From a virus (taxonomy: Duplodnaviria > Caudoviricetes), in the IMG/VR virus record IMGVR_UViG_2576861548_000003, positions 45,909 through 109,908 of that record: DNA of 64,000 bases. One strand, given 5' to 3'. This document shows positions 7,557 to 47,122 of this stretch, piece after piece. Position numbers and translations under genes: made by a program. The notes under the pieces were generated by a model, which was not told where the DNA came from, searched no databases, and saw nothing but the letters and a program-made list of their open reading frames with translations. Every line of letters begins with the position of its first letter. Position 1 is the stretch's first letter.

Positions 7557-7588
7557 AAAAACGTTAATCACGGAAAAATAACTGATTT

Positions 7589-7626: not shown

Positions 7627-7816
7627 ACCGTGAAAATAATGAATCATCTTAGTGGTGTTTGATGACAAAAGGATATTAAATAGGCTTTCTTGGAGTATAT
7701 ACCCTAAACACCACATCAAGGGTATAGAAACTCGAAAGCCTTCGCTTTTTATAGATGAATACAATAGGCATACATGGCAAATCCATTGGTTAATTTCTAA
7801 AATACTAGATTTAATT

Positions 7817-8800
7817 ATGTCGAGACCTAATAAGACAGGTTTGAGTTATTTCCCAATGGATGTTGATTTATTCCAAGACATACGAATAAGGAAACTAATC
7901 AAGTATCAGAGTGGCAAGGCTATAACAGTATATGCTCTCCTGCTATGTCTTATCTACCAGCGTGGGTACTACATGAGGTGGGATGAAGAGTTGCCCTTCA
8001 TTATATCGGAACAAACCGGGTTTGAAGAGGCGTATATACTGGAGGTCATCAGAAGCTGCATGACACTAGGGTTATTCTCCAAGAAACTGTATGATGACGA
8101 ACAAATCATTACGTCAAAAGGGATTCAAGAGCGATACCTGTATATATGTAAACTGCTCAAAAGAAGAGTGAGCATTACTGAATATTTGCTTATTGATGAA
8201 GAAAAGGAGCTTGTTACTTCTCAAGAAACCGGGGTTATTTCCGGAAAAACCCCGGTTATTTCCGAAGAAACTGCTTTAAATTCGGTGAAAATGCAACAAA
8301 AGAAAAGAAAGGAAAAGGAAATAAAAGAAATCTCTCTATTGAGAGATAAAGAAAAGTTTCCCCCTCCCGAGGTTGTAGACAAAACATTAAGCGAATGCTA
8401 TGATGAACTATCATGTGACAGAAGTTGGATTGAAATCGTAACGATGAATACACGTAATTCCGGTCATAAGGATTTTACGATAGACATGTTCGGAATGTAT
8501 TTAAAACGTTTTTTCGAGAAGCTCCAAAACGAGGGAGAGGTAAGAAAGTCTCCCAAGGATGCAAAATCGCATTTCTCCCGTTGGTTGAATATTGAACTGA
8601 AAAAGAAAGGCAATTATGAACCAAAACCAATTACCAACAACATCTACGAGCAGAAGCGAATTGATTCTGAGCGGAGAAAATCTAAACTCATGGCTGAGTT
8701 CGCAGAAGCGGACGCAAAATTCCTTGCAGAACAAGAAGCTAAACGAAAAGCAGTTGGCTTTATTGGAGAAATATCCGACACCTTCCCGGATGGCGGTTGA
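7817..8800 (+). CDS. Phage replication initiator (DUF4373/Lin1244-like N-terminal domain)
   Basis: MSRPNKTGLSYFPMDVD...ITSKGIQERY N-terminus, internal iterons, basic KKRKEKE linker; start 7817 preferred over 7652. Confidence 0.85.
   Translation: MSRPNKTGLSYFPMDVDLFQDIRIRKLIKYQSGKAITVYALLLCLIYQRGYYMRWDEELPFIISEQTGFEEAYILEVIRSCMTLGLFSKKLYDDEQIITSKGIQERYLYICKLLKRRVSITEYLLIDEEKELVTSQETGVISGKTPVISEETALNSVKMQQKKRKEKEIKEISLLRDKEKFPPPEVVDKTLSECYDELSCDRSWIEIVTMNTRNSGHKDFTIDMFGMYLKRFFEKLQNEGEVRKSPKDAKSHFSRWLNIELKKKGNYEPKPITNNIYEQKRIDSERRKSKLMAEFAEADAKFLAEQEAKRKAVGFIGEISDTFPDGG
8213..8296 (+). repeat. Four 21-bp iterons inside the rep gene (probable origin)
   Basis: gttacttctcaagaaaccggg / gttatttccggaaaaaccccg / gttatttccgaagaaactgct / ttaaattcggtgaaaatgcaa followed by an A-rich tract, as in lambda O. 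Confidence 0.75.
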
Positions 8801-14662: not shown

Positions 14663-15064
14663 ATGAACAGAGAAATAATATTCAGAGGGAAAAGCACAAA
14701 TAATGGTAAATGGGTGTATGCAAAATTACATGGGTTTGGCATGGACTTATTTAATGAGTGTGTACAGGAGAATACTGTTGGGCAGTTCACCGGCTTGCAT
14801 GACAAGAACGGAAAAGAAATATACGAAGGTGATATTGTTGAACGAATAGTTACAAATGGATACGGTTTTGGTTTTATAGGTGAAGTGGGCTTTGATAATG
14901 GAGTTTTTGGTATAAAACATAAGACTTATAAAGGTTACATTGTATCCAGTTTTGTATATTCTTCGGATTGGAATGATGGTCATGCGCACGGAACTGTTTT
15001 ATATGAATATGAACTAAAAGGAAATATCTACGATAATCCAGAGTTAATCAAGGAGGAATTATGA
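14663..15064 (+). CDS. YopX-family protein (copy 1)
   Basis: REIIFRGK...GQFTGLHDKNGKEIYEGDIV...GNIYDNPEL. Confidence 0.9.
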   Translation: MNREIIFRGKSTNNGKWVYAKLHGFGMDLFNECVQENTVGQFTGLHDKNGKEIYEGDIVERIVTNGYGFGFIGEVGFDNGVFGIKHKTYKGYIVSSFVYSSDWNDGHAHGTVLYEYELKGNIYDNPELIKEEL

Positions 15065-15705: not shown

Positions 15706-15842
15706 TTGCTTGTTATTTAGTAAGTTAAACAAAGTTTAAGTAAAAGTTTTTAGATTGTTTTATTTTGGTTAACTCGTTGATAATGACTATCTTTACAATA
15801 CTAAAAGAAACCAATAATACTAATCATTAAAAGACAAGAGCA

Positions 15843-16493
15843 ATGAATACTTACCACAAATTCTGTCCAAATGTATTTTTAGCAAAGTGCGAAGAAAAGC
15901 ACGAAAGAGGTGAAGAAATTCTAGTTACCACTAGGTATGGCAAAGAAAACGAAAGCATAGTTTTCAATCTAATTTTTGAGAAAGACGGTTTTTACTATTA
16001 CTCCATCGTACGTGCTGACGGTTTTAACGTTCAGGAATGGGCTAAGCAAAGAGCGGAACGCAGACGTGAATGGGTTATATCGGCAGAACGTAAAAGTAAA
16101 GAGTACTTTGACAGGTCTAATAAAGATAGAGATTTTCTTTCACTTGGTGAACCTATCAAGATTGGTCACCATAGTGAAAAACGTCATAGAAAAGCAATAG
16201 AGGATGCTTGGAATAATACCGAAAAAGCTGTTGCATTCAGCGATAAGGCTTTAGAGCATGAAAGCAAAGCCGAATATTGGGACAAGCGCGCTAATACAAT
16301 CAATTTGTCTATGCCGGAAAGCATTGACTTCTACGAACACAAGTTGGAACAAGCGAAAGAATACCATGAAGGTGTAAAGTCTGGCAAATATCCGCGTGAA
16401 CATGCTTATACTCTTACTTATTCCAAGAAAGCAGTTAATGAAGCACAAAAGAATTACGAACTGGCTAAAAAGTTGTGGGGAGACGAACTATGA
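15843..16493 (+). CDS. DUF3560-domain protein
   Basis: GEPIKIGHHSEKRHR motif. Confidence 0.8.
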   Translation: MNTYHKFCPNVFLAKCEEKHERGEEILVTTRYGKENESIVFNLIFEKDGFYYYSIVRADGFNVQEWAKQRAERRREWVISAERKSKEYFDRSNKDRDFLSLGEPIKIGHHSEKRHRKAIEDAWNNTEKAVAFSDKALEHESKAEYWDKRANTINLSMPESIDFYEHKLEQAKEYHEGVKSGKYPREHAYTLTYSKKAVNEAQKNYELAKKLWGDEL

Positions 16494-19200: not shown

Positions 19201-19611
19201 ATGAGGATTTACACAAGTTATTTCGGGAATTACAGAAAACTAGCAGCTGCAAACGTAAAAATGATATGTGTTGCGCTAGGGAAGCCAAGATTTTATAATG
19301 CACCTCAGATCATAGAGGTGGCACCAAGAAGATACATGTTGGATGATAAATGGACTTATGAAGAGTACACGAATATGTATTTGAATGATGTCCTTGCAAA
19401 AGTCAATCCGCAAGAATTGATTCAAACTATCCAGCGACTCAGTGAAGACAAAGACGTCGCTCTCTGCTGTTACGAAAAACCGGGTGATTTCTGCCATCGT
19501 CATATTTTGGCAAAATGGCTTACCGAAAAGACTGGCATTGAAATAACAGAGTTCGGAGTAGTTGAAAGGAAAGAACCTAAATACGAACAAGCAAGTTTGT
19601 TTGAGATATGA
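19201..19611 (+). CDS. DUF488-family protein
   Basis: MRIYTSYF...VALCCYEKPGDFCHRH. Confidence 0.8.
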   Translation: MRIYTSYFGNYRKLAAANVKMICVALGKPRFYNAPQIIEVAPRRYMLDDKWTYEEYTNMYLNDVLAKVNPQELIQTIQRLSEDKDVALCCYEKPGDFCHRHILAKWLTEKTGIEITEFGVVERKEPKYEQASLFEI

Positions 19612-20009
19612 ACAGAGAAATAATATTCAGAGGGAAAAGCACAAATAATGGTAAATGGGTGTATGCAAAATTACATGGGTTTGGCATGGACTTATTTAAT
19701 GAGTGTGTACAGGAGAATACTGTTGGGCAGTTCACCGGCTTGCATGACAAGAACGGAAAAGAAATATATGAAGGTGACATTGTTGAACAAATAGTTACAA
19801 ATGGATACGGTTATGGTTTTATAGGTGAAGTAAGTTTTGATAACGGAGTTTTTGGTATAAAACATAAGACTTATAAAGGTTACATTGTATCTAGTTTTGT
19901 ATATTCCTCAGATTGGAATGATGGTCATGCGCACGGAACCGTTTTATATGAATATGAATTAAAAGGAAATATCTACGATAACCCAGAATTATTAACCAAC
20001 TATCAATAG
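19608..20009 (+). CDS. YopX-family protein (copy 2)
   Basis: Near-identical to 14663-15064. Confidence 0.9.
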   Translation: MNREIIFRGKSTNNGKWVYAKLHGFGMDLFNECVQENTVGQFTGLHDKNGKEIYEGDIVEQIVTNGYGYGFIGEVSFDNGVFGIKHKTYKGYIVSSFVYSSDWNDGHAHGTVLYEYELKGNIYDNPELLTNYQ

Positions 20010-20367: not shown

Positions 20368-20437
20368 GCGGAAATAGCTCATCGGTAGAGCGTTGGCATT
20401 CCAGCCAAAGAGTGGGGTTCGATTCCCTGTTTCCGCT
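20368..20437 (+). tRNA. Atypical tRNA-Gly(TCC)-like
   Basis: GCGGAAA/TTTCCGC+T73, D-arm GCTC/GAGC, T-loop TTCGATT; anticodon arm TTGGC-ATTCCA-GCCAA (6- or 8-nt loop). Confidence 0.7.
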
Positions 20438-20511
20438 CTAATGCCGTTAAACTCGGCTCGTTGATTGAGGTTGTGTAAAGTAAGCGACAAGGTTCGATTC
20501 CTTGCATTTAG
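20438..20511 (+). ncRNA. tRNA-like element without a normal anticodon loop
   Basis: Perfect T-arm CAAGG-TTCGATT-CCTTG, GCCG/CGGC hairpin, TCGTT/AGCGA stem around a 20-nt loop, imperfect acceptor CTAATG/CATTTAG. Confidence 0.4.
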
Positions 20512-27350: not shown

Positions 27351-27377
27351 TTGTGTTTCTTTTAGTACCTTTGTAAC

Positions 27378-27446
27378 CGAAAACACTTCTTTTGTGTTTT
27401 CATTGCTCTTATGTGCACTGGCTTGTGAAAGTCGGTGCCATTTTTG
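27378..27446 (+). ncRNA. Candidate trans-acting antisense sRNA
   Basis: -7 box TACCTTTG (27366-27373), 5' hairpin GAAAACAC/GTGTTTTC, seed TGTTTTCATTGCTCTTAT, terminator GCACTGGCT-TGTGAA-AGTCGGTGC-CATTTTT. Confidence 0.65.
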
Positions 27447-27588
27447 TTCTATGTCAAAAGTTAAATCTTTGATTTAGAGAGGTTTGTTGTAAAAATAAAA
27501 GTGCAAATGTTTGGATAACTCGTTGATAATTATTATCTTTACAATACAAAAAGAAACCAATAATACTAACAATTAAAAGACAAGGGCA

Positions 27589-27771
27589 ATGAAAGCAACA
27601 ACAATCCAACAGAGAATAATAGAAAAGTTCATCATGTCAGAGTTTGTACAAGGTAACTTAGATACAAAAGAACAGGTTAGCTGTATGCTTATCCTAATTC
27701 AAAAGAAGCTGAATATGTCAGTAGAGCAAGCAAGTGACTTTATGAGAAAATCAATTGGTATTAACGCTTAA
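27589..27771 (+). CDS. Hypothetical protein (insert between terL and portal)
   Basis: 60 aa behind a duplicated promoter/leader. Confidence 0.55.
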   Translation: MKATTIQQRIIEKFIMSEFVQGNLDTKEQVSCMLILIQKKLNMSVEQASDFMRKSIGINA

Positions 27772-38098: not shown

Positions 38099-38647
38099 AT
38101 GGCAGTAATCGGGTGGGGGAAACCACGTATATTTATTAAAGATTTGGATGCAAGTTCTCCAAAGTGGGAAGAGCTTCCGACTCCTGTAGAGGATTCTACA
38201 CAATTGACAACAACCAAAGGAGATAAACAGGAAGCCAAGATTGAAGGTGGGGAAAACGAAGACGTAAAGTATGGCAAAAATACTTATGCTCTTGCTCTCA
38301 ACATTCGTGCCGCAAAGGGACGCAAAAGACCTATTAGTGATAGTGATGGTGTAGTTGCTCACAATTACGCTATTGCGTTACAGCCGGAGGATCCGGAAGT
38401 TCAGGGTTTCTGTATGGAAAAGACTACTGTTTCTGTTGAAGATACATTTACTACGGCAGATGGTGGTGTTTGGGCGTATATGTTTGATGCATTAAAACCT
38501 GGTGCCGACAAAAAGCAAATTCAATGGGGTAAAATTATTGTAACTCCGAACACTGGTACACCAACTAAAATTGAATGTGATCCAGAAGATGAATCCGGAG
38601 ATGGGGATAAGTTTGAAGTAGCTCCTAATCCTGGTATAGGAGGTTAA
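38099..38647 (+). CDS. Major tail tube protein
   Basis: Synteny; beta-rich 182 aa. Confidence 0.7.
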   Translation: MAVIGWGKPRIFIKDLDASSPKWEELPTPVEDSTQLTTTKGDKQEAKIEGGENEDVKYGKNTYALALNIRAAKGRKRPISDSDGVVAHNYAIALQPEDPEVQGFCMEKTTVSVEDTFTTADGGVWAYMFDALKPGADKKQIQWGKIIVTPNTGTPTKIECDPEDESGDGDKFEVAPNPGIGG

Positions 38648-38695
38648 GTTTTGATAGGTAATGCCGAGCGTGGGGGCGTAGTACCCACGTGTTTT

Positions 38696-38766
38696 GCGGA
38701 GATGGTGTAATGGTTGCATATATATCATCCAGATATCAGGTTACGGTTCAAGTCCGTATCTCCGCT
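38696..38766 (+). tRNA. Second atypical tRNA-Gly(TCC)-like gene
   Basis: GCGGAGA/TCTCCGC+T73, D-arm GTGT/GCAT, T-arm TACGG-TTCAAGT-CCGTA, anticodon loop CATCCAG (A instead of U33). Confidence 0.7.
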
Positions 38767-38843
38767 CTGTTTTTTGAGAATCTGATTTGTTGTTCATAAT
38801 TTAATGTCGGTTGTCTGTGAAGATAGCCGATAAAAAATAATTG

Positions 38844-39560
38844 ATGATGAAAGAAACTATAAAAGATATAGACGCGGATATTGCTGATATAATAATGAGC
38901 GTTCCGAGAGGATTTAAAGTGGGTAAAAGAAAGTTCTATCTTTATCCTATTACTCTTGGTAAAACATATCTTATTTCACGCCTTATGTCTTCCTTGAATA
39001 TAAATCTAAAAATAGTACACGCTAATCCATACATGGAGGCTTTAAGGCTATGCCAAGACAAGAAAAATATTGTATGCCGTATATTATCCTATCACACAAT
39101 TAATAAGAAAAAAGATTTGTTTGATAATGATGTGATTCAGGAAAGATGTGATTTTTTTATTAAAGAACTTGATAATGAAAGTTTGGCACAACTGCTTGTG
39201 ATGGTCCTTTCCGAAGGGGATATATCTCAATTTACTAAGCATTTAGGCATTGACAAAGAAAAAGAGTGGCAAGAAAAGGCGATGAAGGCTAAAAGAGACA
39301 ATAATTCTTTCGTTTTCGGTGGAAAAAGTATATACGGTACACTAATAAGTTCTGCTTGTGAACGTTATGGCTGGACTTTTGAATATGTTGTATGGGGAAT
39401 AAGCTATGCCAATCTGCAACTACTTCTTGCCGATTCTATAACGTCTATCTATTTGTCTGACGAAGAACGTAAGCGAGTTAATATACCTAAAGACCGCAAC
39501 GTGATAAATGCTGATGATCCGGCAAATATGGCAAGGATTAAGGCAATGAAATGGGATTGA
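38844..39560 (+). CDS. Tail assembly chaperone
   Basis: Between MTP and tape measure; LYPITLG..ERYGWTFEYVVWGISYANL. Confidence 0.65.
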   Translation: MMKETIKDIDADIADIIMSVPRGFKVGKRKFYLYPITLGKTYLISRLMSSLNINLKIVHANPYMEALRLCQDKKNIVCRILSYHTINKKKDLFDNDVIQERCDFFIKELDNESLAQLLVMVLSEGDISQFTKHLGIDKEKEWQEKAMKAKRDNNSFVFGGKSIYGTLISSACERYGWTFEYVVWGISYANLQLLLADSITSIYLSDEERKRVNIPKDRNVINADDPANMARIKAMKWD

Positions 39561-39565
39561 TTCAA

Positions 39566-39710
39566 CATAAATGTATGCAATAACTGGGTTTCTTCGGAAA
39601 TAACCCCAGTTTCTTCCGAAATAACCCCAGTTTCTTCGAAAATAATACGGTATTATTCCGTGATTAATCACTGATTATTCCGTGATCACTACGTCAACAC
39701 TACGTGATTT
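39566..39710. repeat. Intergenic ~21-bp-period array containing inverted copies of the rep iterons plus other short repeats
   Basis: ataaccccagtttcttc.gaa x3; GTTTCTTCGGAAATAACC (39588-39605) is the exact reverse complement of 8254-8271; then ttattccgtgat x2 and cactacgt x2. Confidence 0.85.
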
Positions 39711-40181
39711 TTAAAATATATTAATTCTTATCTGTTTTATATTGAATATAGATAAAAATATCTATATTTGCATCTGTAACAAGTACGAGATGTTACCAGA
39801 CATTGATTCAGTATTCTCCTGTACGGAGTTTATATATGAATAGCCTCGTAGTAGCTCGTACCTATTACGGGGCTTTCTATTTAAAGCCAGTTATACAATC
39901 GGTTCTATCAGTGCCAACCGTTCCGAACTTTGACAGCGGAGAGATAAAATGGCTCTTATGTTTTGCACTATATGTCTTTTATTGGAAAGTCCTGCTCTGT
40001 TCCTATCACCTAACAACAGGCGCCCAAGCGTTGTATTACGATAACCAATAAGGGATGAATCAAAGATATTGGAGAAGTATTGAGTGTTAAAGCAACAAAA
40101 TGGATAATTGAAGTTTAATAAAGTCCATCCACCTCCTAATAATTATCTTGGGAGAAAGGGTGAGGTATAAAATTAGTCAAC

Positions 40182-40667
40182 ATGGAAGAGATATATTCGT
40201 TTGAAGAAATTGCAGATTATATCAATAAGCGTAATTTAGCCGTATCTCCTGAGTACGTTGTTAGTTATTGGACAAAGAAAAAATGGATAACTAAGAAAGG
40301 GACTCCTGTAAAAACATTAGCTGCTGTTGTTGATGTTGCTAATAGCATATTTCTCACTAAAAAGAGAAGAGAGAAAGGAGAGCCAACTTCTAATTTAAAA
40401 TCTCTTCGGAAAATGAAGAGAGAAAAAGAAAAATTAGAATATACTAAATTTACCACTTATAATAACCAACTTCAAGATGATAGATGGATAGCGTTTAGAA
40501 ACTTTGTTCTTACAGCAAGAGGGAAACGTTGTGAAAAATGTGGGAGTGACAAACATATTAAAATACATCATCCATATTATATTAAAGGAAGAGCTGCATG
40601 GGAATACAACTGCTTAGATGTTATCGTATTATGTAGTTGTTGTCATGAAAAAGAGCATCACATTTAA
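40182..40667 (+). CDS. HNH endonuclease with an N-terminal helical domain resembling phage replication-protein C-termini
   Basis: CEKCG..IHH..WEY..LCSCCH.EH; N-terminal SFEEIADYI..VSPE..VSYW...W. Confidence 0.75.
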   Translation: MEEIYSFEEIADYINKRNLAVSPEYVVSYWTKKKWITKKGTPVKTLAAVVDVANSIFLTKKRREKGEPTSNLKSLRKMKREKEKLEYTKFTTYNNQLQDDRWIAFRNFVLTARGKRCEKCGSDKHIKIHHPYYIKGRAAWEYNCLDVIVLCSCCHEKEHHI

Positions 40668-40696
40668 AAGAACAATATAACTTTAAATTATAGTTT

Positions 40697-40786
40697 ATGA
40701 ATGAACTTGTTTTCAAAGGTCAGAATGACCAAGTTTTAACAAGCAGCCTATTCAGTCTAAAAGTAAAGGGCAATAAATCACGATAG
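40697..40786 (+). pseudogene. Truncated Rha-type antirepressor N-terminus (29 aa)
   Basis: MNELVFKGQNDQVLTSSL then runs into a terminator. Confidence 0.55.
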
Positions 40787-40812
40787 GCTTTGTGTAACCA
40801 TCGTGATTTATT
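40772..40812. terminator. Bidirectional hairpin between convergent units
   Basis: AATAAATCACGAT...ATCGTGATTTATT. Confidence 0.7.
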
Positions 40813-40843
40813 GGTAGTAAAATAGAACATATATAGCATCTAA

Positions 40844-41716
40844 TTAGGAAACTATTTCTCCAGTATCCTTATTTAATATCAGATGGTATTTCTTTTTTTC
40901 TCCTACTTTGGTAGTGGCTTCAATGTCTAATATTACGTTATCTTTATCTAATGAATATATGGATTGGTTAACTCTTATCTCTTCATCGGTGATGGGTACC
41001 TGCCAAATTAGATATTCATCATATATATACATTGAAAGGTCGACACACATAACCATATTGTCATAGATATATACCATATTACTGTAAGATATAGGCAAGT
41101 AATTATTTCTTTCAATTTCTTTAATCCATCCTTCGGTACCTGTAGCATTATTCCCAATTGTCTGCTTTAAATCACTATCCAATACTCCAATTTCGTAACC
41201 TCCTGTTCTTGTGGTTATATAAATGGCAACATATTCTCCATACCAATCTGCTATTGCTTCTGGATAGAAGACAGTTTCTTCAAAGCCATTATTATGTTCT
41301 TTATCAAAATATTCTTTTTTAAGGACCTTACCATCTTTTATTTTCAAGATGAATTTATGTGGGTGATTAGCCATATTTGCGTATAAGCTAACCAATATAT
41401 AGAAATAGTCGTCTTTTTTTAAGGCACTTTGAAGAAAACACCCGTTGACTATATATTCTCTTTTATCTCCGAACCCAAGATCATGAGTGTAATTCTCTGC
41501 TTTATCTTTGATAGTAAATACCTTGTTCCCTGATTCATCAATAGCCTCTATATAGTAATCTCCTTCAAAGATATAGGCTTGTAGTTTTAAATCATCTACT
41601 AAGATAGCACTGTCTATTTTATATTGGGGCTGATCTGGTTCATTAACAAGATTGTCGTTTGAACTACAACTTGTAAATATAATTATTGCTATTATAAAGA
41701 ATAAATTTTTTCTCAT
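40844..41716 (-). CDS. Lipoprotein (moron)
   Basis: MRKNLFFIIAIIIFTSC lipobox; very AT-rich; opposite strand. Confidence 0.8.
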   Translation of the reverse strand: MRKNLFFIIAIIIFTSCSSNDNLVNEPDQPQYKIDSAILVDDLKLQAYIFEGDYYIEAIDESGNKVFTIKDKAENYTHDLGFGDKREYIVNGCFLQSALKKDDYFYILVSLYANMANHPHKFILKIKDGKVLKKEYFDKEHNNGFEETVFYPEAIADWYGEYVAIYITTRTGGYEIGVLDSDLKQTIGNNATGTEGWIKEIERNNYLPISYSNMVYIYDNMVMCVDLSMYIYDEYLIWQVPITDEEIRVNQSIYSLDKDNVILDIEATTKVGEKKKYHLILNKDTGEIVS

Positions 41717-41729
41717 AAGTTGTCTGTTG

Positions 41730-42854
41730 TTATTCCCTTATTGCCATTTTAAGTGATTCTTCTAGTTTTCCTGCATATTTAAATATATCGTCTATACTGT
41801 CAATCTGAAGCCATTCGCAACTCTTGTAGTTATCTAATGGTATTCCTATCTGCTTCTTTCTTGCGCCAATAGAGATACGGCATATCCAAAACCACTGGCT
41901 GTTATCAAGGTTCACGACGAAGTAGCTCTTGTAGTCTCTATAGGTTATACGTGTTACATCCACGCTTTTTCTTAAAATACTTCTTACGATATTGTAAGCA
42001 TCCAATTCTTCTTGCGTCGTTACAACACCGGATTCTTTGTCCATATATACAACTCCGTCCGGGAGTTTCTCTTCTGTATTTTCTGTGGAAGTATTTATGG
42101 ATGTATTGTCTGACATCTGGAGTGGATCAGATGTCTGCTCACCATTCTTTATGGCTGTGTTTAGCCTATCTGAAATGATGTCATTGATAATTGATGAGAT
42201 GGATTTCTTTACAAGTGGAGTGAACATATCTATAACCTTGGATGTGATTTGCCCGGAAGTATATGCTTGGCGGGCGAAGAATCGTACAAATTCAGGTGTT
42301 GGCGATGAAAACTCGTTGTTTAGTATAGACTTTATCTCCGTTGTATATTTAAGTTCATTTGCCGTACTTAGAACATCCTCTTCGTTGTAATATGATTTAT
42401 GAAACTTTTTTAGCTGTTCTATATCCGCATCTGATAACTCAAGCATATCCACAATAAGAAACGGCTTTTCATCCATGATGTTGATTTTCTCCAAGTCTGT
42501 ATAAAAGCGGTATTCTATCCCATTGGTAAGTACTCCAAATCGTGCTTTTGATGCAACAAAATACTTCTGTAGTTGCGTGTCATGCAAGTTTAAGTCCTGT
42601 TTGCAGTGTTTGCATTCTATGAGTATTATTGGGCTTTCGTCCTTCATTATGGCGTAGTCAATCTTTTCTCCCTTTTTCTTTATAAGGTCGCAATCAAGTT
42701 CTGGAATGACTTCAAAAGGATTAAATACATCGTAGCCTAAAGCAGCGATCATAGGCATAATAAATGCTGTTTTCGTAGCCTCTTCTGTAGCTATACTATC
42801 CTTTTGCTTTTGGATACGTTCTGCAAGTTGTAAGATTTGATCTTTAAAGTCCAT
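41730..42854 (-). CDS. Type I restriction HsdR N-terminal domain protein (moron)
   Basis: TEEATKTAFI.P...LGYD..EKIDYAI..IECK..LTNGIEYRFY; own TATATTTG promoter near 42884-42891. Confidence 0.85.
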   Translation of the reverse strand: MDFKDQILQLAERIQKQKDSIATEEATKTAFIMPMIAALGYDVFNPFEVIPELDCDLIKKKGEKIDYAIMKDESPIILIECKHCKQDLNLHDTQLQKYFVASKARFGVLTNGIEYRFYTDLEKINIMDEKPFLIVDMLELSDADIEQLKKFHKSYYNEEDVLSTANELKYTTEIKSILNNEFSSPTPEFVRFFARQAYTSGQITSKVIDMFTPLVKKSISSIINDIISDRLNTAIKNGEQTSDPLQMSDNTSINTSTENTEEKLPDGVVYMDKESGVVTTQEELDAYNIVRSILRKSVDVTRITYRDYKSYFVVNLDNSQWFWICRISIGARKKQIGIPLDNYKSCEWLQIDSIDDIFKYAGKLEESLKMAIRE

Positions 42855-42958
42855 GCTTTTATTGTTGTATAATAATATATGCACAAATATATTTTATATA
42901 ACAATATAAACAAAATTAAAGATAAAAAAATAATCTATTAAATATGTTTTTGCTATGT

Positions 42959-42995
42959 ATGTGGCATTTAATACGTCACTTTTATTATCTTTGCA
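42959..42995 (+). promoter_or_regulatory. Operator-promoter unit upstream of tape measure
   Basis: atGTGGC-atttaatac-GTCACTTTT-at-TATCTTTG. Confidence 0.65.
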
Positions 42996-43039
42996 ATGCC
43001 GTGTGATGTTGCACGGAACTATTTCTATCGAAAAGACTT

Positions 43040-46000
43040 ATGGCTGGATTACACTTCGACATAACCGGTGACAACTCCAACTTTATACGTAAACTTCATG
43101 AGTGTGAAAATGGAGTAAAAAACACATCCCGACAAATAGAACAAAGTGGGTTAGGTATAGAAGATTTATTTAACCGTATGACTAAAGCTGCTGCCGCATT
43201 CGGAGTTGGTTTCACTGCGAAAGAATTAATTTCAAATATAGCACATGTTCGCGGCGAGTTTCAACAATTGGAAGTTGCATTTAAGACAATGCTTGGTAGC
43301 GAAGATAAAGCTAATGCTCTTATGCAACAGTTGGTCAAAACAGCTGCTACTACACCATTTGATTTGCAAGGAGTTGCAAATGGAGCCAAACAGCTTCTTG
43401 CTTACGGAGAAAACGTTGAGAATGTCAATGATGATTTGATACGTCTTGGGAATATAGCAGCAGGTCTTTCTCAGCCGCTTGGTGATATTGTGTATTTGTA
43501 CGGTACTACCATGACGCAAGGACGGTTATACACGGCGGATTTAAACCAATTTACTGGCCGTGGTATCCCTATGATTCGCGAATTAGCAAAAGTATTTGGT
43601 GTCGCTGAAGGGAAAGTAAAAGGTTTGGTTGAAGCAGGGAGGGTTGGTTTTCCTGAAGTGCAGAAAGTTATCCAGAATCTTACAAATGAAGGTGGAATGT
43701 TTTTCAACTTGATGCAGGAACAATCTAAAACGATTGCTGGTCAGATTTCAAATATTGAAGATGCAATTGCTACTATGTTCAATGAAATTGGTAAAGCCAA
43801 TGAAGGTATTATCAATGATGCTTTGTCTGGGGTTTCTTATCTGGTTGAAAACTACGAAAAGGTAGGAGCTCTTTTATTAGAAATAGTAGGAACTTATGGA
43901 GTATACCGTACAGCCCTTATGGCTACGACTGCATTGCAGGCTTTGCAAGCTTCCGGTATAACTGCTTTAACGGCGAAAGAAGCTATTCATTATGGGTGGT
44001 TAGTGCTTACGAAGAAAGCTCAAGATGCCTTAAATTTATCCATGCTTAAAAATCCTTATATATTGGTTGCTGCATCTATTGCAGGATTGGTTTATGGTAT
44101 ATATAAATTTGCTACAGCAGAAAGTGATACGGAACAAGCAATTCGTAAAACGAACGATGCACTTGAGGCACAAAATAATCATTATGAAGAGTTGAAAAAT
44201 AAGGCAAGTCAACTCTCTAATATTTTAAGTGATGAATCTAAATCTATAGAAGAGCGTTTCATTGCATATCGTAAACTTCAGCGTTTAATGCCAGAAGTTT
44301 TTAAAGATATGGATTGGGAAGCAGCTAAACGGAAAACAAATGCTGAGCTTACAAAACTTGAGAATGATGAACTTTTAAGACAGCAACGTATTGGGCTAAA
44401 AACAAAGGTTGTAATGTCTCAACAAAAAATACAGGGGCTAAGGAGTAGCTTAATAAAAACTCAAAATGCTGGTGGGTATACTGGGGCATTAAAGGAAGAT
44501 TTAGCTGCTGCTGAAAAAGAATTGGAAATATATCAAGAGGCCCTTAAGGCTTTTGAGGAAGCCAAAGAAGAATCGAAAAAAGCTAAAAATGCTCCAACTG
44601 TACAAGACAAAGAATATTGGGAGAATCAAAAAAAAGAAGCTGAAAATGCCTTAGAATCTATTGCATCTTCTCAAAAGAGATTGTTGGACGCTGGTAACTT
44701 TAAAGGTATAGATACTGCTGTTGTAAAGAGTTACAAGGATAATGTTAAAAAGCTAAAGGAGGCTGAAAAAGAACTGAAGGTTTATGACACCTCTTCCAAA
44801 CAGGAATCTGCTGCTGAAAAACTTCGCAAACAGCAAGAAGGCATTCGTTCCCAGAATGATAAGATCTCTGAAATAGAACGCAAACAGGCAATCCAGCGTA
44901 AAAGGCAGGCTGAAGATATGGAAATGGAAATCTCACAGTCTGAGATCAATGCCATGGCTGATGGATCTGAGAAAAAACGTATGCAGAGGGAATTGGATAA
45001 CCGGAAAGAGATCCAATCACTGGAAAGGCAAAAAGAAGATATGATCCAGGCTGTAATTCAAGCTGAGAAAGAGATTTTTGATGCTCAGGAAGAGTTGAAG
45101 GTTAAAGAGAATAACAAATATCAGAAAAAGACTTTTGATTCTTCTAAGGTGGATACAGAGAAGATTAGCTCTATCTGGGATACCATTATAGGGAACACGT
45201 CTAGAAAGCAACTTGATGATAAAATACGCGAACAAGAGGCGTCTTGGAACGAATATCTTATCAAGTTTGGCAACTATCAACAGAAAAGGCTGGCCATTAT
45301 TGAGAAATATGATAGGGCCATAAAGGAGGCCGAAACGGCGGGGGATGTAGCTATCTTGATGAAAGAGAAAGCTAATGCGCTTGATGATTTTGACAACTCC
45401 GTAAAGAATAGTACAACCTTAATGGGGCAGCTCTTTGCTGATGCTTCCCAAAAGAGTGTGAACGAGATTCAGTCCATCATTGCAAAAGCCGAATTATTGA
45501 TGCAATACCTTGGTGCCGTTAAGGATGAACAGGGAAATGCTCAAATCGGTGGAAAGACAGTTTCAAAGAAGGATATTTTAGGTCTTGGGATAAGTGACAA
45601 TACCCTTCAAAATTTAGAACTTTCAACCGAGCAAACAGAGGCACTAAGAAATGCTATTGGTCGTTTAAAAGAGGAATTGGGAGCAAAGAGTCCTTTTGCG
45701 CTTTTCAAAAAGCAAGTAAAAGAAGCGGCAGGTGAAATAGCGAAAGGAGGTCAGGAAAATATTGCTCGAGGGATTGCAGGGATCGGAAGTGCTATTGTTC
45801 AATTTACTCCTGCTATATCTCAGTTTGGTCAGGATCTTGGTACAATATTTGGCAACGACGATCTTGGTAATAAAATAGCTGGTATTTCTGATGCGTTAGG
45901 TGGAGTTGGCCAAACAGCCATGGGAGTTGGCCAGATAATGTCTGGTGATATTGTAGGTGGTGCTATGAGTGCTGTTTCCGGTATTTCATCAGTTGTAAAG

Positions 46001-47122
46001 GCCTTGGATGGTTTGTTTGGTGCTGATTATTCCCGATACAATGAAATGAAGTCACAATATGAAGCTCTTAATTCTGTGTGGGATGAACTTATCAATAAGA
46101 AGAAAGAGTATATTGATATGTCTTATGGGGATGAAGCGTATAAAGTTGGGAAAGAGGCCGAAAGCCTGATAAAGCAACAAACCCAAAGATATTATGAACT
46201 TCTGAATGAATTAAGAAAAAGTGGGTCCAGTATCGGGTCAAGTTCTTTAGGCAAACGAATAGAAAAAAGACTTAATAAAGAAGATTGGGCCAGAATATCC
46301 AGTGCTGTTGGTGAATCTGTAACAAATGCAGAAACTTTATTAAATCTTTCAGCAGAACAGCTAGAAGAAGTGCTTGCCGACCCTAAGCTAGTCTCTGTCC
46401 TCAATACTGTCAACGAAGACTTTATAAAGTATATACAAGATATTGTGAATGGTTCCGAAAAATTAGAGGATATACAGAATCAAGTCAAAGAACAGCTTAC
46501 TCAAGTATCGTTTGATAGCGTGTTTGACAGTTTTGTAGACACTTTGATGAATATGGATAGTTCGGCTAAGGATTTCGCTGATGATTTCACTTCTTATATG
46601 CAAAAAGCTATCCTTTCTACTATGTTAGGAAAGACATATGAAAAACGGTTGCAAGAATGGTATGATGCGTTTGCTTCGGCTAATGAAGATAAAGGCGGTA
46701 TCTCTAGTGATGAATATAAGAATCTGCAAGAACAGTGGAATAGCATTGTTAATGATGCCATTAAGGAACGTAATGAATTAAAGGATTTGCTTGGTTGGAG
46801 TTCCGATACTTCCGTTTCGCAAGATTCTACAAAACGAGGGTTTGAAGGAATGTCCCAGGATACAGCAGAAGAACTGAACGGACGTTTCACGGCTTTGCAG
46901 ATGGCAGGGGAAGAGATTAAGAATCAAATGATAAATGTTGTTGTTGGAGTTAACTCTTTAATTTCAATCTCAACAGAAGGGAATGTTACCTTGAGTAATA
47001 TCCTTAGCCAACACGTAATTACAAATGGCTATTTAGAAGATATTGTGAAACACACAAAGCTGATGCTTGGTTTTGGAGATAAATTTGATAAGATGATTAC
47101 TGTTTTTAATGATAGACTATAA
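43040..47122 (+). CDS. Tail tape measure protein
   Basis: 1360 aa; tape-measure N-domain (AATTPF..GAKQLLAYG..LNQF..RGIP), helical/Gly-Ala rich. Confidence 0.93.
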   Translation: MAGLHFDITGDNSNFIRKLHECENGVKNTSRQIEQSGLGIEDLFNRMTKAAAAFGVGFTAKELISNIAHVRGEFQQLEVAFKTMLGSEDKANALMQQLVKTAATTPFDLQGVANGAKQLLAYGENVENVNDDLIRLGNIAAGLSQPLGDIVYLYGTTMTQGRLYTADLNQFTGRGIPMIRELAKVFGVAEGKVKGLVEAGRVGFPEVQKVIQNLTNEGGMFFNLMQEQSKTIAGQISNIEDAIATMFNEIGKANEGIINDALSGVSYLVENYEKVGALLLEIVGTYGVYRTALMATTALQALQASGITALTAKEAIHYGWLVLTKKAQDALNLSMLKNPYILVAASIAGLVYGIYKFATAESDTEQAIRKTNDALEAQNNHYEELKNKASQLSNILSDESKSIEERFIAYRKLQRLMPEVFKDMDWEAAKRKTNAELTKLENDELLRQQRIGLKTKVVMSQQKIQGLRSSLIKTQNAGGYTGALKEDLAAAEKELEIYQEALKAFEEAKEESKKAKNAPTVQDKEYWENQKKEAENALESIASSQKRLLDAGNFKGIDTAVVKSYKDNVKKLKEAEKELKVYDTSSKQESAAEKLRKQQEGIRSQNDKISEIERKQAIQRKRQAEDMEMEISQSEINAMADGSEKKRMQRELDNRKEIQSLERQKEDMIQAVIQAEKEIFDAQEELKVKENNKYQKKTFDSSKVDTEKISSIWDTIIGNTSRKQLDDKIREQEASWNEYLIKFGNYQQKRLAIIEKYDRAIKEAETAGDVAILMKEKANALDDFDNSVKNSTTLMGQLFADASQKSVNEIQSIIAKAELLMQYLGAVKDEQGNAQIGGKTVSKKDILGLGISDNTLQNLELSTEQTEALRNAIGRLKEELGAKSPFALFKKQVKEAAGEIAKGGQENIARGIAGIGSAIVQFTPAISQFGQDLGTIFGNDDLGNKIAGISDALGGVGQTAMGVGQIMSGDIVGGAMSAVSGISSVVKALDGLFGADYSRYNEMKSQYEALNSVWDELINKKKEYIDMSYGDEAYKVGKEAESLIKQQTQRYYELLNELRKSGSSIGSSSLGKRIEKRLNKEDWARISSAVGESVTNAETLLNLSAEQLEEVLADPKLVSVLNTVNEDFIKYIQDIVNGSEKLEDIQNQVKEQLTQVSFDSVFDSFVDTLMNMDSSAKDFADDFTSYMQKAILSTMLGKTYEKRLQEWYDAFASANEDKGGISSDEYKNLQEQWNSIVNDAIKERNELKDLLGWSSDTSVSQDSTKRGFEGMSQDTAEELNGRFTALQMAGEEIKNQMINVVVGVNSLISISTEGNVTLSNILSQHVITNGYLEDIVKHTKLMLGFGDKFDKMITVFNDRL

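What the first reader, a model, noticed from the sequence alone, without database searches (positions are those of the whole stretch)
39566..39710. Origin-mimic array: copies of the phage's own iterons, plus other iteron-like repeats, 31 kb from the origin
Seen: right after the tail chaperone stop, three 20-21-bp units (ataac at 39580, 39600, 39621) reproduce the rep-gene iterons in inverted orientation, including an exact 18-bp match (39588-39605 vs 8254-8271). In roughly the same phase the array changes into different repeats: aatgtatgcaataac before it, then ttattccgtgat x2 and cactacgt x2, followed by an AT-rich tract. No rep ORF surrounds it. Known: separate iteron clusters such as P1 incA titrate or handcuff initiators. 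Inference: a compact catalogue of initiator-binding sites for this phage and perhaps for relatives with other rep alleles, acting as a decoy against superinfecting phages, a copy-number control, or a hijackable secondary origin.
Basis: partly seen in the sequence, partly recalled or inferred. Interest (0 to 1): 0.85.

Follow-up and report, generated by a model that had tools for sequence, protein, structure and literature searches.

The report
Phage array of four initiators' sites
A gut-bacterial phage carries, far from its replication gene, a short non-coding strip built from the DNA binding words of its own replication starter protein and of three rival versions found in other phages, which suggests that phages can bait or exploit each other's replication machinery.

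Summary
Confirmed and extended. The 139-bp non-coding stretch 39570-39708 is a head-to-tail mosaic of the short repeats that four phage replication-initiator (Rep) alleles carry inside their own genes. It holds three inverted units of this phage's own Rep repeats (18 bp exact). It also holds exact 15-, 21- and 22-bp matches to the linker repeats of three other Rep alleles in other gut-phage contigs. Outside rep genes, 313 kb of related phage DNA gave only four 15-mers and nothing longer. The array abuts one of the three most AT-rich tracts of the window, which also holds a promoter-like site for a ~110-nt RNA. All 13 close relatives carry the array with varying unit numbers, and four related contigs carry a second copy elsewhere. 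Sixty-five more distant relatives lack it at this site, and five phages with the other alleles lack any foreign-unit cluster. The layout (a site inside the initiator gene plus a distal late-region site beside morons) matches SPP1 oriL/oriR; the foreign units are new. Most likely it is a multi-specific Rep landing pad that drains or exploits rivals' initiators. Binding is untested. This scan noted comparable mixed iteron arrays before on other DNA (an actinophage, an E. coli satellite).

The parts
39570..39584 (.). Single unit of allele-C type (AATGTATGCAATAAC). It has the same orientation as in the C-type rep gene, and its last 5 bases overlap the first own-type unit.
   Evidence: 15-bp exact match to the repeated linker word of the rep gene in 19 loci L164-L182. 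That ORF is a Lin1244_N + DUF7833 protein, phrog_16706/2562.
39580..39641 (.). Three own-type (allele A) units of 20-21 bp, inverted relative to the rep gene.
   Evidence: 18-bp exact match to 8254-8271. Spacing is 21, 21. Unit number varies from 1 to 5 among relatives and run contigs. Units are also 20 of 21 identical to a unit of a sister allele A' (L247/L254).
39642..39652 (.). Connector ATAATACGGTA, not assigned to any allele.
   Evidence: A 17-mer scan of IMG/VR gave 39 unrelated single hits outside the lineage and none in a rep context.
39653..39686 (.). Allele-D type units at an 11-bp period (TTATTCCGTGAT / TAATCACTGA / TTATTCCGTGAT), inverted relative to D-type rep genes.
   Evidence: 21-bp exact match (31 bp at 93.5%) to the linker repeats of rep genes in L217, L218, L220 and L224. 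The ORFs in L217 and L220 are phrog_1408/2149/19658 replication initiators.
39687..39708 (.). Two allele-B type units (CACTACGT + 3 bases) at an 11-bp period, in the same orientation as in B-type rep genes.
   Evidence: 22-bp exact match to the L097 rep linker. The same pair lies in the rep context of 25 further contigs. Unit number varies from 2 to 4.
39709..39775 (+). Extreme A+T-rich tract (86.6% A+T). It is a possible unwinding element and holds a promoter-like -7 box TATATTTG at 39763-39770.
   Evidence: It is one of only 3 regions of the 64-kb window this A+T-rich, and 0.08% of 67-bp windows reach its level. The promoter was read by eye against the Bacteroidota TAnnTTTG consensus, which is recalled and not from a tool.
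39776..39885 (+). Predicted ~110-nt structured RNA ending in an intrinsic terminator. It travels with the array.
   Evidence: Terminator at 39842-39874 plus a T run. Fold is -33.6 kcal/mol, z = -3.0. A 16-nt perfect antisense stretch (39809-39824) matches two YopX paralogs. In run contigs homology to the window ends at 39902 or 39962, so array, promoter and RNA stay together while the cargo changes. No transcript was shown.
8222..8273 (+). Own Rep linker repeats (2.4 units of 21 bp, in frame). This is the presumed primary origin inside the rep gene. A purine-rich tract follows at 8276-8342.
   Evidence: The repeats are conserved in 11 of 11 close and 7 of 7 88%-identical rep loci, and L095 has one extra unit. 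The tract is 73% A+T and 72% purine.
7652..8800 (+). Replication initiator gene (allele A). The likely true start is the ATG at 7817.
   Evidence: Lin1244_N (aa 66-158) and DUF7833 (aa 250-313); phrog_2562 'replication initiation protein' at 5e-41 and phrog_16706 'replisome organizer'. The alignment with allele C begins at M56. It is the only Lin1244_N gene in the record.

Best explanation
The stretch is a distal, origin-like landing pad for replication initiator proteins. It is the counterpart of oriR of Bacillus phage SPP1, whose first origin also lies inside the initiator gene. Here it is made multi-specific. Shown by sequence: it is built only of the DNA repeats that four Rep alleles carry in the linker of their own genes (own type A plus foreign types B, C and D). 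The repeats are packed head to tail in helical phase, at a 21-bp or 11-bp period, next to one of the most A+T-rich tracts of the phage. Inferred: each block is bound by the N-terminal domain of its cognate Rep. Own Rep bound here would act as in the SPP1 model, as a second origin or a fork barrier that modulates replication. In a cell that also holds a phage with a B, C or D initiator, the foreign blocks would capture that initiator. That would either drain it or handcuff it to the rival's origin, or use it to fire replication of this phage. Either way the carrier gains in mixed infection or when a lysogen is superinfected.
For: Composition: exact matches of 18, 22, 15 and 21 bp to the repeats of four different rep genes lie within 139 bp. 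The same 44-linker catalogue finds only four 15-mers and nothing longer outside rep genes in 313 kb. All four genes are replication initiators by PHROGs. The repeats are DNA-level elements: types B and D repeat every 11 bp inside coding sequence, so they are read in three frames. The repeats and the N-terminal domain change together while the C-terminal domain stays: A vs B is 94% identical over 155 aa with unrelated N-termini. Only the repeats were copied, with no flanking rep coding sequence and with stop codons around them. Origin-like build: the array abuts a tract of 86.6% A+T, one of three such in 64 kb. It is kept as a module: 13 of 13 close relatives have it. Four related contigs hold a paralogous second copy with the order C-A-D, 94% identical over 67 bp with unrelated flanks. 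Run contigs keep the array while the downstream cargo changes. Type B is common in gut phages, found in rep context in 25 + 4 contigs, so a rival with that Rep is plausible. Precedents: SPP1 gp38 binds repeats in oriL inside gene 38 and in oriR, which lies in a moron segment of the late region, and may stall forks there (PMC6316719 and PMC3485210, passages). Ectopic lambda origin or iteron copies block lambda replication (PMC4488673 and PMC3349717, abstracts). Phage ori fragments act as copy-dependent 'PER' resistance (PMC6356513, passages).
Against: No binding, replication or interference datum exists. There are only 1-5 units per specificity and one copy per prophage, while published decoys needed plasmid copy numbers. 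No reciprocal arrays were found: five complete or partial contigs of B, C and D phages hold no foreign units. A-type phages with an 88% identical Rep carry the repeats only in rep (assigned by contig name), so the array is dispensable for A-type replication. A second rep-like gene elsewhere in the same record (G000:C1:6111-6911) has its own linker repeats, and these are not represented in the array. The D allele was found by searching with the array's own 18-mer, so only its position inside rep linker repeats is independent evidence. The C match (15 bp) equals the longest background matches and counts only through its place. Most relatives come from one large data set and may not be independent. 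Both arrays sit just upstream of small-RNA promoters, which a pure decoy does not explain.
Confidence: 0.45

Rival explanations
1. Legacy or adaptor site. The array is an SPP1-oriR-like site needed only for the phage's own Rep. The foreign blocks are relics of rep alleles that this lineage carried before module swaps, or a hedge that keeps the site usable after the next swap. They play no role against other phages.
For: Rep N-terminal domain and repeats are swapped as a cassette in this gene pool: A vs B has a 94% identical C-terminus and an unrelated N-terminus, and A vs C shares the C-terminal domain. C is present as a single unit and the D units are imperfect, as expected of relics. Array 2 has lost the B units.
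Against: B units are perfect copies and vary in number (2-4) as actively as the own units. All 8 array-bearing contigs whose rep gene is on the contig have allele A, so no swap is seen within the array-bearing lineage. B-type and 88% A-type phages have no distal site at all, so such a site is not a general requirement that would need preserving.
Confidence: 0.2
2. Rep-responsive control region of the adjacent small-RNA promoter. Initiators bound 55-190 bp upstream switch transcription of the ~110-nt RNA, and in relatives of the sRNA at 27366. This would tie repression of early genes to the rise of Rep, own or foreign.
For: Array 1 ends 55 bp before the -7 box at 39763-39770. The RNA after array 1 carries a 16-nt perfect antisense to two early YopX genes. 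In lambda, plasmid-borne inhibition needed iterons plus transcription of the adjacent oop RNA (PMC3349717, abstract).
Against: The window itself keeps the 27366 promoter without array 2, so the promoter does not need an array. No Rep of this family is known to act as a transcription factor; this was not searched beyond. Promoters and intergenic slots coincide anyway, so proximity may be incidental. No transcript data exist, because contigs from RNA libraries cannot show transcription.
Confidence: 0.15
3. No function. The array is recombination or slippage debris that gathered at a cargo-insertion hot spot, for example template switches at Rep-bound repeats.
For: The site is a cargo junction: 54 relatives have a terminator and other cargo here, and 11 have the tape-measure gene directly. 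Unit numbers fluctuate as in any tandem repeat. The HNH ORF downstream is itself an insertion relative to MT836351.
Against: Four unrelated repeat types are present without any flanking rep sequence, are in helical phase, and were duplicated as one module to a second site. 13 of 13 close relatives and run contigs from other habitats retain all four blocks.
Confidence: 0.1
4. Decayed fragment of a former rep gene.
For: The reverse strand reads a peptide like the Rep linker across the own-type units (tblastn E = 1.5e-4).
Against: Similarity is confined to the units and stop codons flank them. There is no trace of N- or C-terminal Rep domains or of the purine-rich tract. DNA similarity to 8100-8420 covers only 8223-8273. 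The blocks have mixed orientation relative to their genes.
Confidence: 0.03

Closest known systems
Bacillus phage SPP1 oriL / oriR with origin-binding protein gp38 (G38P)
   Same: The first repeat cluster lies inside the initiator's own gene. The second cluster lies far away in the late region, in a segment with moron genes bracketed by transcription signals. Both are built of direct repeats plus an A+T-rich tract (PMC6316719 and PMC3485210, passages). Here the clusters are 8222-8273 in rep and 39570-39775 between the tail genes. The Rep matches a PHROG labelled 'replisome organizer'.
   Different: SPP1 oriR is described with repeats for its own gp38 only. Here three further blocks match the repeats of other initiator alleles. 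Homology of this Rep to gp38 itself was not tested. The host phylum differs. 88%-identical A-type relatives lack the distal site.
Lambda O protein with ori-lambda iterons inside gene O; inhibition of lambda by ectopic ori or iteron copies
   Same: The repeats lie in the linker between the DNA-binding N-terminal domain and the C-terminal domain of the initiator, followed by an A-rich tract. The N-domain and the repeats exchange together (the domain logic of O is recalled). Ectopic origin copies arrest lambda (PMC4488673, abstract). Iterons plus the neighbouring oop RNA suffice for inhibition (PMC3349717, abstract). Here too a small RNA gene adjoins the array.
   Different: Those decoys were laboratory plasmids carrying the phage's own origin. 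Here the array is natural, sits on a phage, and holds foreign words. The Rep shows only a weak PHROG match to an 'O-like' family (3.9e-6).
P1 incA, P4 crr and plasmid iteron control loci (handcuffing or titration)
   Same: These are extra clusters of initiator-binding repeats outside the origin that bind the same Rep (recalled, not from a call).
   Different: They hold only the element's own iterons. P4 crr is required in cis, whereas this array is dispensable for A-type relatives. An adjacent A+T-rich tract is not part of incA.
PER (phage-encoded resistance): phage origin fragments that protect cells in trans
   Same: A non-coding origin-like element of a phage interferes with replication of phages that recognise it (PMC6356513, passages citing Sfi21).
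   Different: PER is copy-number dependent and directed at the cognate phage type. It has no mosaic of several specificities, and its use was mostly on plasmids.
Origin-centred conflicts: Vibrio PLE RepA/ori vs the ICP1 nuclease Odn; iteron-dependent interference between begomoviruses
   Same: Specificity of initiator-iteron pairs is the battleground between co-replicating elements (PMC8263062 and PMC10611410, search listing and start of abstract only). phrog_5718, labelled 'HNH endonuclease', shares the N-terminal domain of the B and D type Reps.
   Different: Those cases use a nuclease or a virus's own common region. None is described as a non-coding catalogue of several foreign iteron types.

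Membership tests
Iteron-type initiator binding-site array | Tandem direct repeats of roughly one or two helical turns | tested here: met
   Spacings are 21, 21, 22 and 11, 11.
Iteron-type initiator binding-site array | Same words as the repeats at the cognate initiator's origin | tested here: met
   Exact matches of 18 bp (own), 22, 15 and 21 bp to linker repeats of four rep genes. The background maximum outside rep genes is 15 bp in 313 kb.
Iteron-type initiator binding-site array | Bound by the initiator protein | not testable with these tools
   This needs gel shift, footprint or ChIP. No protein-DNA predictor is on hand.
Iteron-type initiator binding-site array | The rep-internal repeats are themselves an origin | tested here: inconclusive
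   Selection at DNA level is indicated: an 11-bp period inside coding sequence, allele-specific words, a following purine-rich tract, and in-frame copy-number changes. No replication assay exists, and the window's GC skew is uninformative.
SPP1-type two-site system (oriL in the initiator gene, oriR distal) | First site inside the initiator's own coding sequence | tested here: met
   8222-8273 lies within the rep ORF 7652-8800.
SPP1-type two-site system (oriL in the initiator gene, oriR distal) | Second site in the late region, in a moron segment with its own transcription signals | tested here: met
   The array lies between ORF 38841-39560 and the tape-measure gene 43040-47122, together with HNH-like and nuclease cargo, a promoter-like box and terminators. 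Compare PMC6316719.
SPP1-type two-site system (oriL in the initiator gene, oriR distal) | Direct repeats plus an A+T-rich unwinding element at the distal site | tested here: met
   The tract of 86.6% A+T at 39709-39775 is in the top 0.08% of windows. Unwinding itself was not tested.
SPP1-type two-site system (oriL in the initiator gene, oriR distal) | Initiator homologous to gp38 | not tested
   There is only a PHROG label 'replisome organizer' (phrog_16706, 1e-25). No comparison with the gp38 sequence was made.
Origin decoy (PER, lambda ectopic ori) | Carries origin words of the phage that it inhibits | tested here: met
   Blocks B, C and D equal the repeats of other phages' rep genes.
Origin decoy (PER, lambda ectopic ori) | Present in many copies relative to the target | tested here: not met
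   There are 1-5 units per type and one or two arrays per genome. Copy number would rise only during this phage's own replication.
Origin decoy (PER, lambda ectopic ori) | Lowers replication of the cognate phage | not testable with these tools
   This needs plating and replication assays.
Decayed rep gene fragment | Residual similarity to rep coding sequence beyond the repeats | tested here: not met
   tblastn and blastn similarity is confined to the units, and stops flank them.
Known RNA family | Match to an Rfam model in 38600-43100 | tested here: not met
   0 matches at E up to 5.

The most novel reading that the evidence does not exclude
A temperate gut phage keeps a compact, evolving catalogue of the origin words of rival phages' initiator proteins, next to an unwinding tract and a small-RNA promoter. 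Through it the phage captures foreign initiators. That would either starve or handcuff the rivals' origins or get this phage replicated at their expense, and possibly report their arrival by switching on the adjacent RNA. This would be a natural, multi-specific form of replication-level warfare or piracy between phages, with unit gain and loss as the evolving interface.
Probability: 0.35. Interest if true: 0.9.

Novelty: new variant of a known kind. Interest (0 to 1): 0.8.

Why it matters
Distal initiator-binding sites are known (SPP1 oriR, P1 incA, P4 crr), and laboratory origin decoys are known to block phages. I found no description of a natural array that strings together the binding words of several different initiator alleles. 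Subscription journals are mostly not covered, and supplements are closed. If the foreign blocks are bound, initiator-origin specificity would join receptors, repressors and defence systems as an interface of competition between temperate phages sharing a host. It would also help explain why the N-terminal domain and its repeats are swapped so often in these rep genes. It is directly testable, because four proteins and four short DNA blocks are defined here. Comparable mixed arrays noted by this scan in an actinophage and an E. coli satellite (unchecked notes) suggest the design may recur.

Tried and rejected
Rfam on 38600-43100 gave no match at E up to 5.

GenBank phages: the 1.4-kb region gave one hit, downstream of the array only (MT836351). 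The 151-bp array gave only chance-level hits (E 0.5-6, Klebsiella phages and one unannotated record).

A two-unit D pattern scan found, besides the lineage itself, only unrelated tandem repeats (L135/L142, L139).

A scan with the connector 17-mer found 39 unrelated single hits outside the lineage and no rep context. The connector stays unassigned.

Reciprocal arrays were sought in five fetched contigs of B, C and D phages (G001-G005) and none was found. The contigs are 58-100% complete, so absence is not proven.

Two short matches are at background level and are not used. One is a 15-mer of the own-type core 24-38 bp upstream of the C-type rep start in G003. The other is a 12-mer of the D block upstream of the window's rep gene at 7565-7576, conserved in several lineages.

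The genome-contig scan with the Rep C-terminal domain gave one distant hit in a Prevotellaceae MAG, so no host information came from it.

PADLOC on the cargo ORFs gave one weak hit (E 4e-4) for 41730-42884 and nothing else.

B/D-type N-terminal domains are absent from the whole record, with a working positive control.

Sequencing runs: only contigs were available for the holders. They show array variants and cargo replacement but cannot show transcription, starts or ends. Parts without cover are not evidence.

The cumulative GC skew of the window rises monotonically and marks no origin. The sigma-70 promoter scan is not suited to this phylum.

The decayed-rep-gene reading was rejected. attP, pac and parS readings were considered and dropped because each block equals a rep-gene repeat; they were not tested further.

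Full report
THE OBSERVATION. Ten bases after the stop of ORF 38841-39560 comes AATGTATGCAATAAC (39570-39584). Three 20-21-bp units follow, beginning ATAAC at 39580, 39600 and 39621. After an 11-bp connector come TTATTCCGTGAT / TAATCACTGA / TTATTCCGTGAT (39653-39686). Then come two CACTACGT units (39687-39708) and a very A+T-rich tract. The repeat finder gives spacings of 21, 21, 22 and 11, 11. The 18-bp exact inverted match to 8254-8271 is real. A 20-mer of the unit with up to three mismatches occurs only at two places in the rep gene and two in the array, and in none of 100 shuffles.

THE REP GENE AND THE SETTING. The gene at 7652-8800 (likely start 7817) is a replication initiator. It has Lin1244_N and DUF7833 domains and matches phrog_2562 and phrog_16706 'replisome organizer'. 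Its repeats lie in the linker between the two domains and are followed by a purine-rich tract. The array lies in a roughly 3.5-kb cargo segment between ORF 38841-39560 and the tape-measure gene 43040-47122. ORF 38841-39560 has unknown function and is a 'chaperone' by position only. The terminase, portal and head genes lie upstream. The window is bases 45909-109908 of a 109,908-base IMG/VR provirus record.

WHAT THE OTHER REPEATS ARE. I fetched relatives of the Rep protein and of its C-terminal domain from IMG/VR and compared their DNA with the array.

- Type B. Loci L097-L100 encode a Rep whose last 155 residues are 94% identical to the window's Rep and whose N-terminal domain is unrelated. 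Their linker holds 11-bp-period repeats, and 22 bp of them are identical to 39687-39708 in the same orientation.
- Type C. Nineteen loci (L164-L182) encode a Lin1244_N Rep that is 49% identical to the window's. Its linker repeats TTAATGT[A/T]TGCAA three times, and 15 bp are identical to 39570-39584.
- Type D. An IMG/VR scan with an 18-mer of the middle block found the lineage's own arrays plus four contigs (L217, L218, L220, L224). In each of these the match lies inside 11-bp-period repeats. In L217 and L220 I delimited the surrounding ORFs. They are replication initiators whose N-terminal domain is 44% identical to type B. The match is 21 bp exact, or 31 bp at 93.5%. This allele was found through the array's own sequence, so only its location is independent evidence.
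- Shared design. In every allele the repeats sit between the N-terminal domain and a purine-rich tract. In types B and D the 11-bp period runs through coding sequence in three frames, so the repeat is kept at the DNA level.

CHANCE. A catalogue of 44 distinct rep linkers was matched against 313 kb: the window and five fetched contigs of B, C and D phages. Purine-rich words were masked. Outside rep genes there were four exact matches of 15 bp and none longer. The array alone holds matches of 15, 18, 21 and 22 bp to four different allele groups within 139 bp. The 15-bp C match is no longer than the background and counts only because of where it lies, on both sides.

NOT A DEAD REP GENE. Protein and DNA similarity to Rep is confined to the repeat units. 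Stop codons flank them in every frame, and no trace of either Rep domain or of the purine-rich tract remains. The blocks also differ in orientation relative to their genes: A and D are inverted, B and C are direct.

DISTRIBUTION.
- Of 78 loci encoding a relative of ORF 38841-39560, all 13 with 99-100% identity carry the array. They have 1 C unit, 2-5 A units, 2-3 D motifs and 2-4 B units.
- None of the 54 loci at 77-79% identity has it; they carry a terminator hairpin and other cargo. None of the 11 loci at 38-48% has it; there the tape-measure gene follows directly.
- Eight of the 13 contigs also hold the rep gene, always allele A.
- Contigs from two RNA-library runs of other habitats show the same array with one or two A units fewer and two B units more. 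Homology to the window ends at 39902 or 39962. So array, promoter and short RNA stay together while the cargo changes.
- Four related contigs hold a second, paralogous array with a partial C unit, one A unit and D units. It is 94% identical over 67 bp and has unrelated flanks. It lies between the terminase and portal genes, directly upstream of the sequence homologous to window 27366. The window lacks it.
- An IMG/VR scan for the own-type unit found 39 loci: 13 arrays, 18 loci on contigs known to hold A-type rep genes (assigned by contig name), 2 loci of a sister allele A' with even more similar units, and 6 unrelated coding hits. Phages with the 88%-identical A allele thus carry the words only in rep.
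- A scan for the B pair found the 13 arrays, the L097 contig, and 25 further contigs. All 25 are in the L097-type rep context.
- Five B, C and D contigs hold no foreign units.
- The window's record encodes no B/D-type N-terminal domain (with a positive control).

SURROUNDINGS.
- The tract 39709-39775 is 86.6% A+T. Only three regions of the window reach that level.
- It contains TATATTTG at 39763-39770, which fits the Bacteroidota -7 consensus TAnnTTTG (recalled, read by eye).
- From about 39776 a ~110-nt stretch folds well (z = -3.0) and ends in a terminator.
- Sixteen of its bases are perfectly complementary to both copies of a duplicated YopX gene in the early region.

HOW IT MOST LIKELY WORKS. 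The closest described system is SPP1. Its gp38 binds direct repeats in oriL, inside gene 38, and in oriR, which lies in a moron segment of the late region. Both have an A+T-rich unwinding element. gp38 bound at oriR is proposed to stall forks and trigger the switch to concatemer synthesis (PMC6316719 and PMC3485210, passages). The own-type part of the array fits this design feature by feature. Homology of the two initiators was not tested.

The foreign blocks are what is new. Ectopic origin or iteron copies are known to block lambda (abstracts). Origin fragments also act as copy-dependent resistance in dairy streptococci (passages). My best reading (0.45) is therefore a multi-specific landing pad that binds the phage's own Rep and captures the Reps of B-, C- and D-type phages. 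The effect would be draining or handcuffing them, or being replicated by them. These two outcomes are not exclusive.

Shown: the composition, the phasing, the A+T-rich neighbour, retention, duplication as a module, and the abundance of type B. Inferred: binding and every consequence.

Points against: few units, a single copy in the prophage, no reciprocal arrays, dispensability for A-type relatives, and a second rep-like gene in the same record whose repeats are not represented.

RIVALS. The rival readings are a legacy or hedge of rep-module swaps (0.2), a Rep-responsive control region for the adjacent RNA promoter (0.15), debris at a cargo hot spot (0.1), and a decayed rep gene (0.03, tested and not met).

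NOVELTY. Distal own-iteron sites are a known kind. A natural mosaic of several alleles' words is, as far as my six full-text searches show, not described. I class it as a new variant of a known kind. Unchecked notes of this scan describe comparable mixed arrays in an actinophage and in an E. coli satellite, so the design may recur.

Noticed in passing
window 39776-39885; targets 14762-14777 and 19707-19722: The predicted ~110-nt RNA after the array has a 16-nt perfect antisense stretch (39809-39824). It matches the same place, 100 nt into the ORF, in two nearly identical YopX genes (14663-15064 and 19608-20009). It is a candidate trans-acting sRNA against duplicated early genes.
   Followed up: partly
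L223 ~527-620, L219 ~870-960, L221 ~237-330, L222 ~1040-1110 (relatives); homologous point window 27366: A second paralogous array (partial C unit, one A unit, D units, no B units) lies after a terminator hairpin and about 85 bp upstream of the TACCTTTG promoter-like box of the unit at 27366-27446. It is present in four related contigs and absent from the window.
   Followed up: partly
window 40182-40667 within 39893-40752; L241 2501-2858: In GenBank MT836351 the non-coding stretches homologous to 39893-40184 (86%) and 40696-40752 (89%) are contiguous and precede a different gene. The HNH-like ORF of the window is therefore an insertion into a conserved ~350-nt non-coding element of unknown nature, which has no Rfam match. 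In run contig X17 the same interval is replaced by 685 other letters.
   Followed up: partly
L241 ~2260-2330 (MT836351): Upstream of a similar promoter-plus-short-RNA unit, that record has four TTAC-started words at about 10-bp spacing. This may be another binding-site array.
   Followed up: no
window 7817-8800 vs L097 1012-1968: The rep genes are mosaics. The N-terminal domain and its linker repeats are exchanged as a cassette, while the C-terminal 155 residues stay 94% identical. At least four N-domain and repeat types share DUF7833-type or other C-termini.
   Followed up: yes
G000:C1:6111-6911 (outside the window, about 39 kb before its start): A second rep-like ORF has a C-terminal part 47% identical to the D-type Rep C-terminus. 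Its linker has its own repeats. It may belong to another element in the same record.
   Followed up: no
window 7565-7576 and homologous places in L079, L089, L160, L161, L163: A conserved stretch upstream of the rep gene contains TTAATCACGGAA, a 12-mer shared (inverted) with the D block of the array. This is at chance level for a single match, but it sits in a conserved promoter-proximal region with AATCAC/GTGATT half-sites.
   Followed up: partly
window 15764-15847 and 27510-27593: An 84-bp repeat (93% identical) comprises a promoter-like site, a 5' leader and a start codon.
   Followed up: no
window 38696-38767 and 20368-20438: ARAGORN calls a tRNA-Gly(tcc) at 38696-38767 and an odd tRNA at 20368-20438. 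The Rfam scan of 38600-43100 at E up to 5 returned nothing for the first. This fits the earlier notes that these tRNAs are aberrant.
   Followed up: no
L247 12075-12092, L254 9772-9789: A further rep allele (A') has four 21-bp linker units. One of them is 20 of 21 identical to the array's own-type units, which is closer than the window's own rep units (19 of 21).
   Followed up: partly
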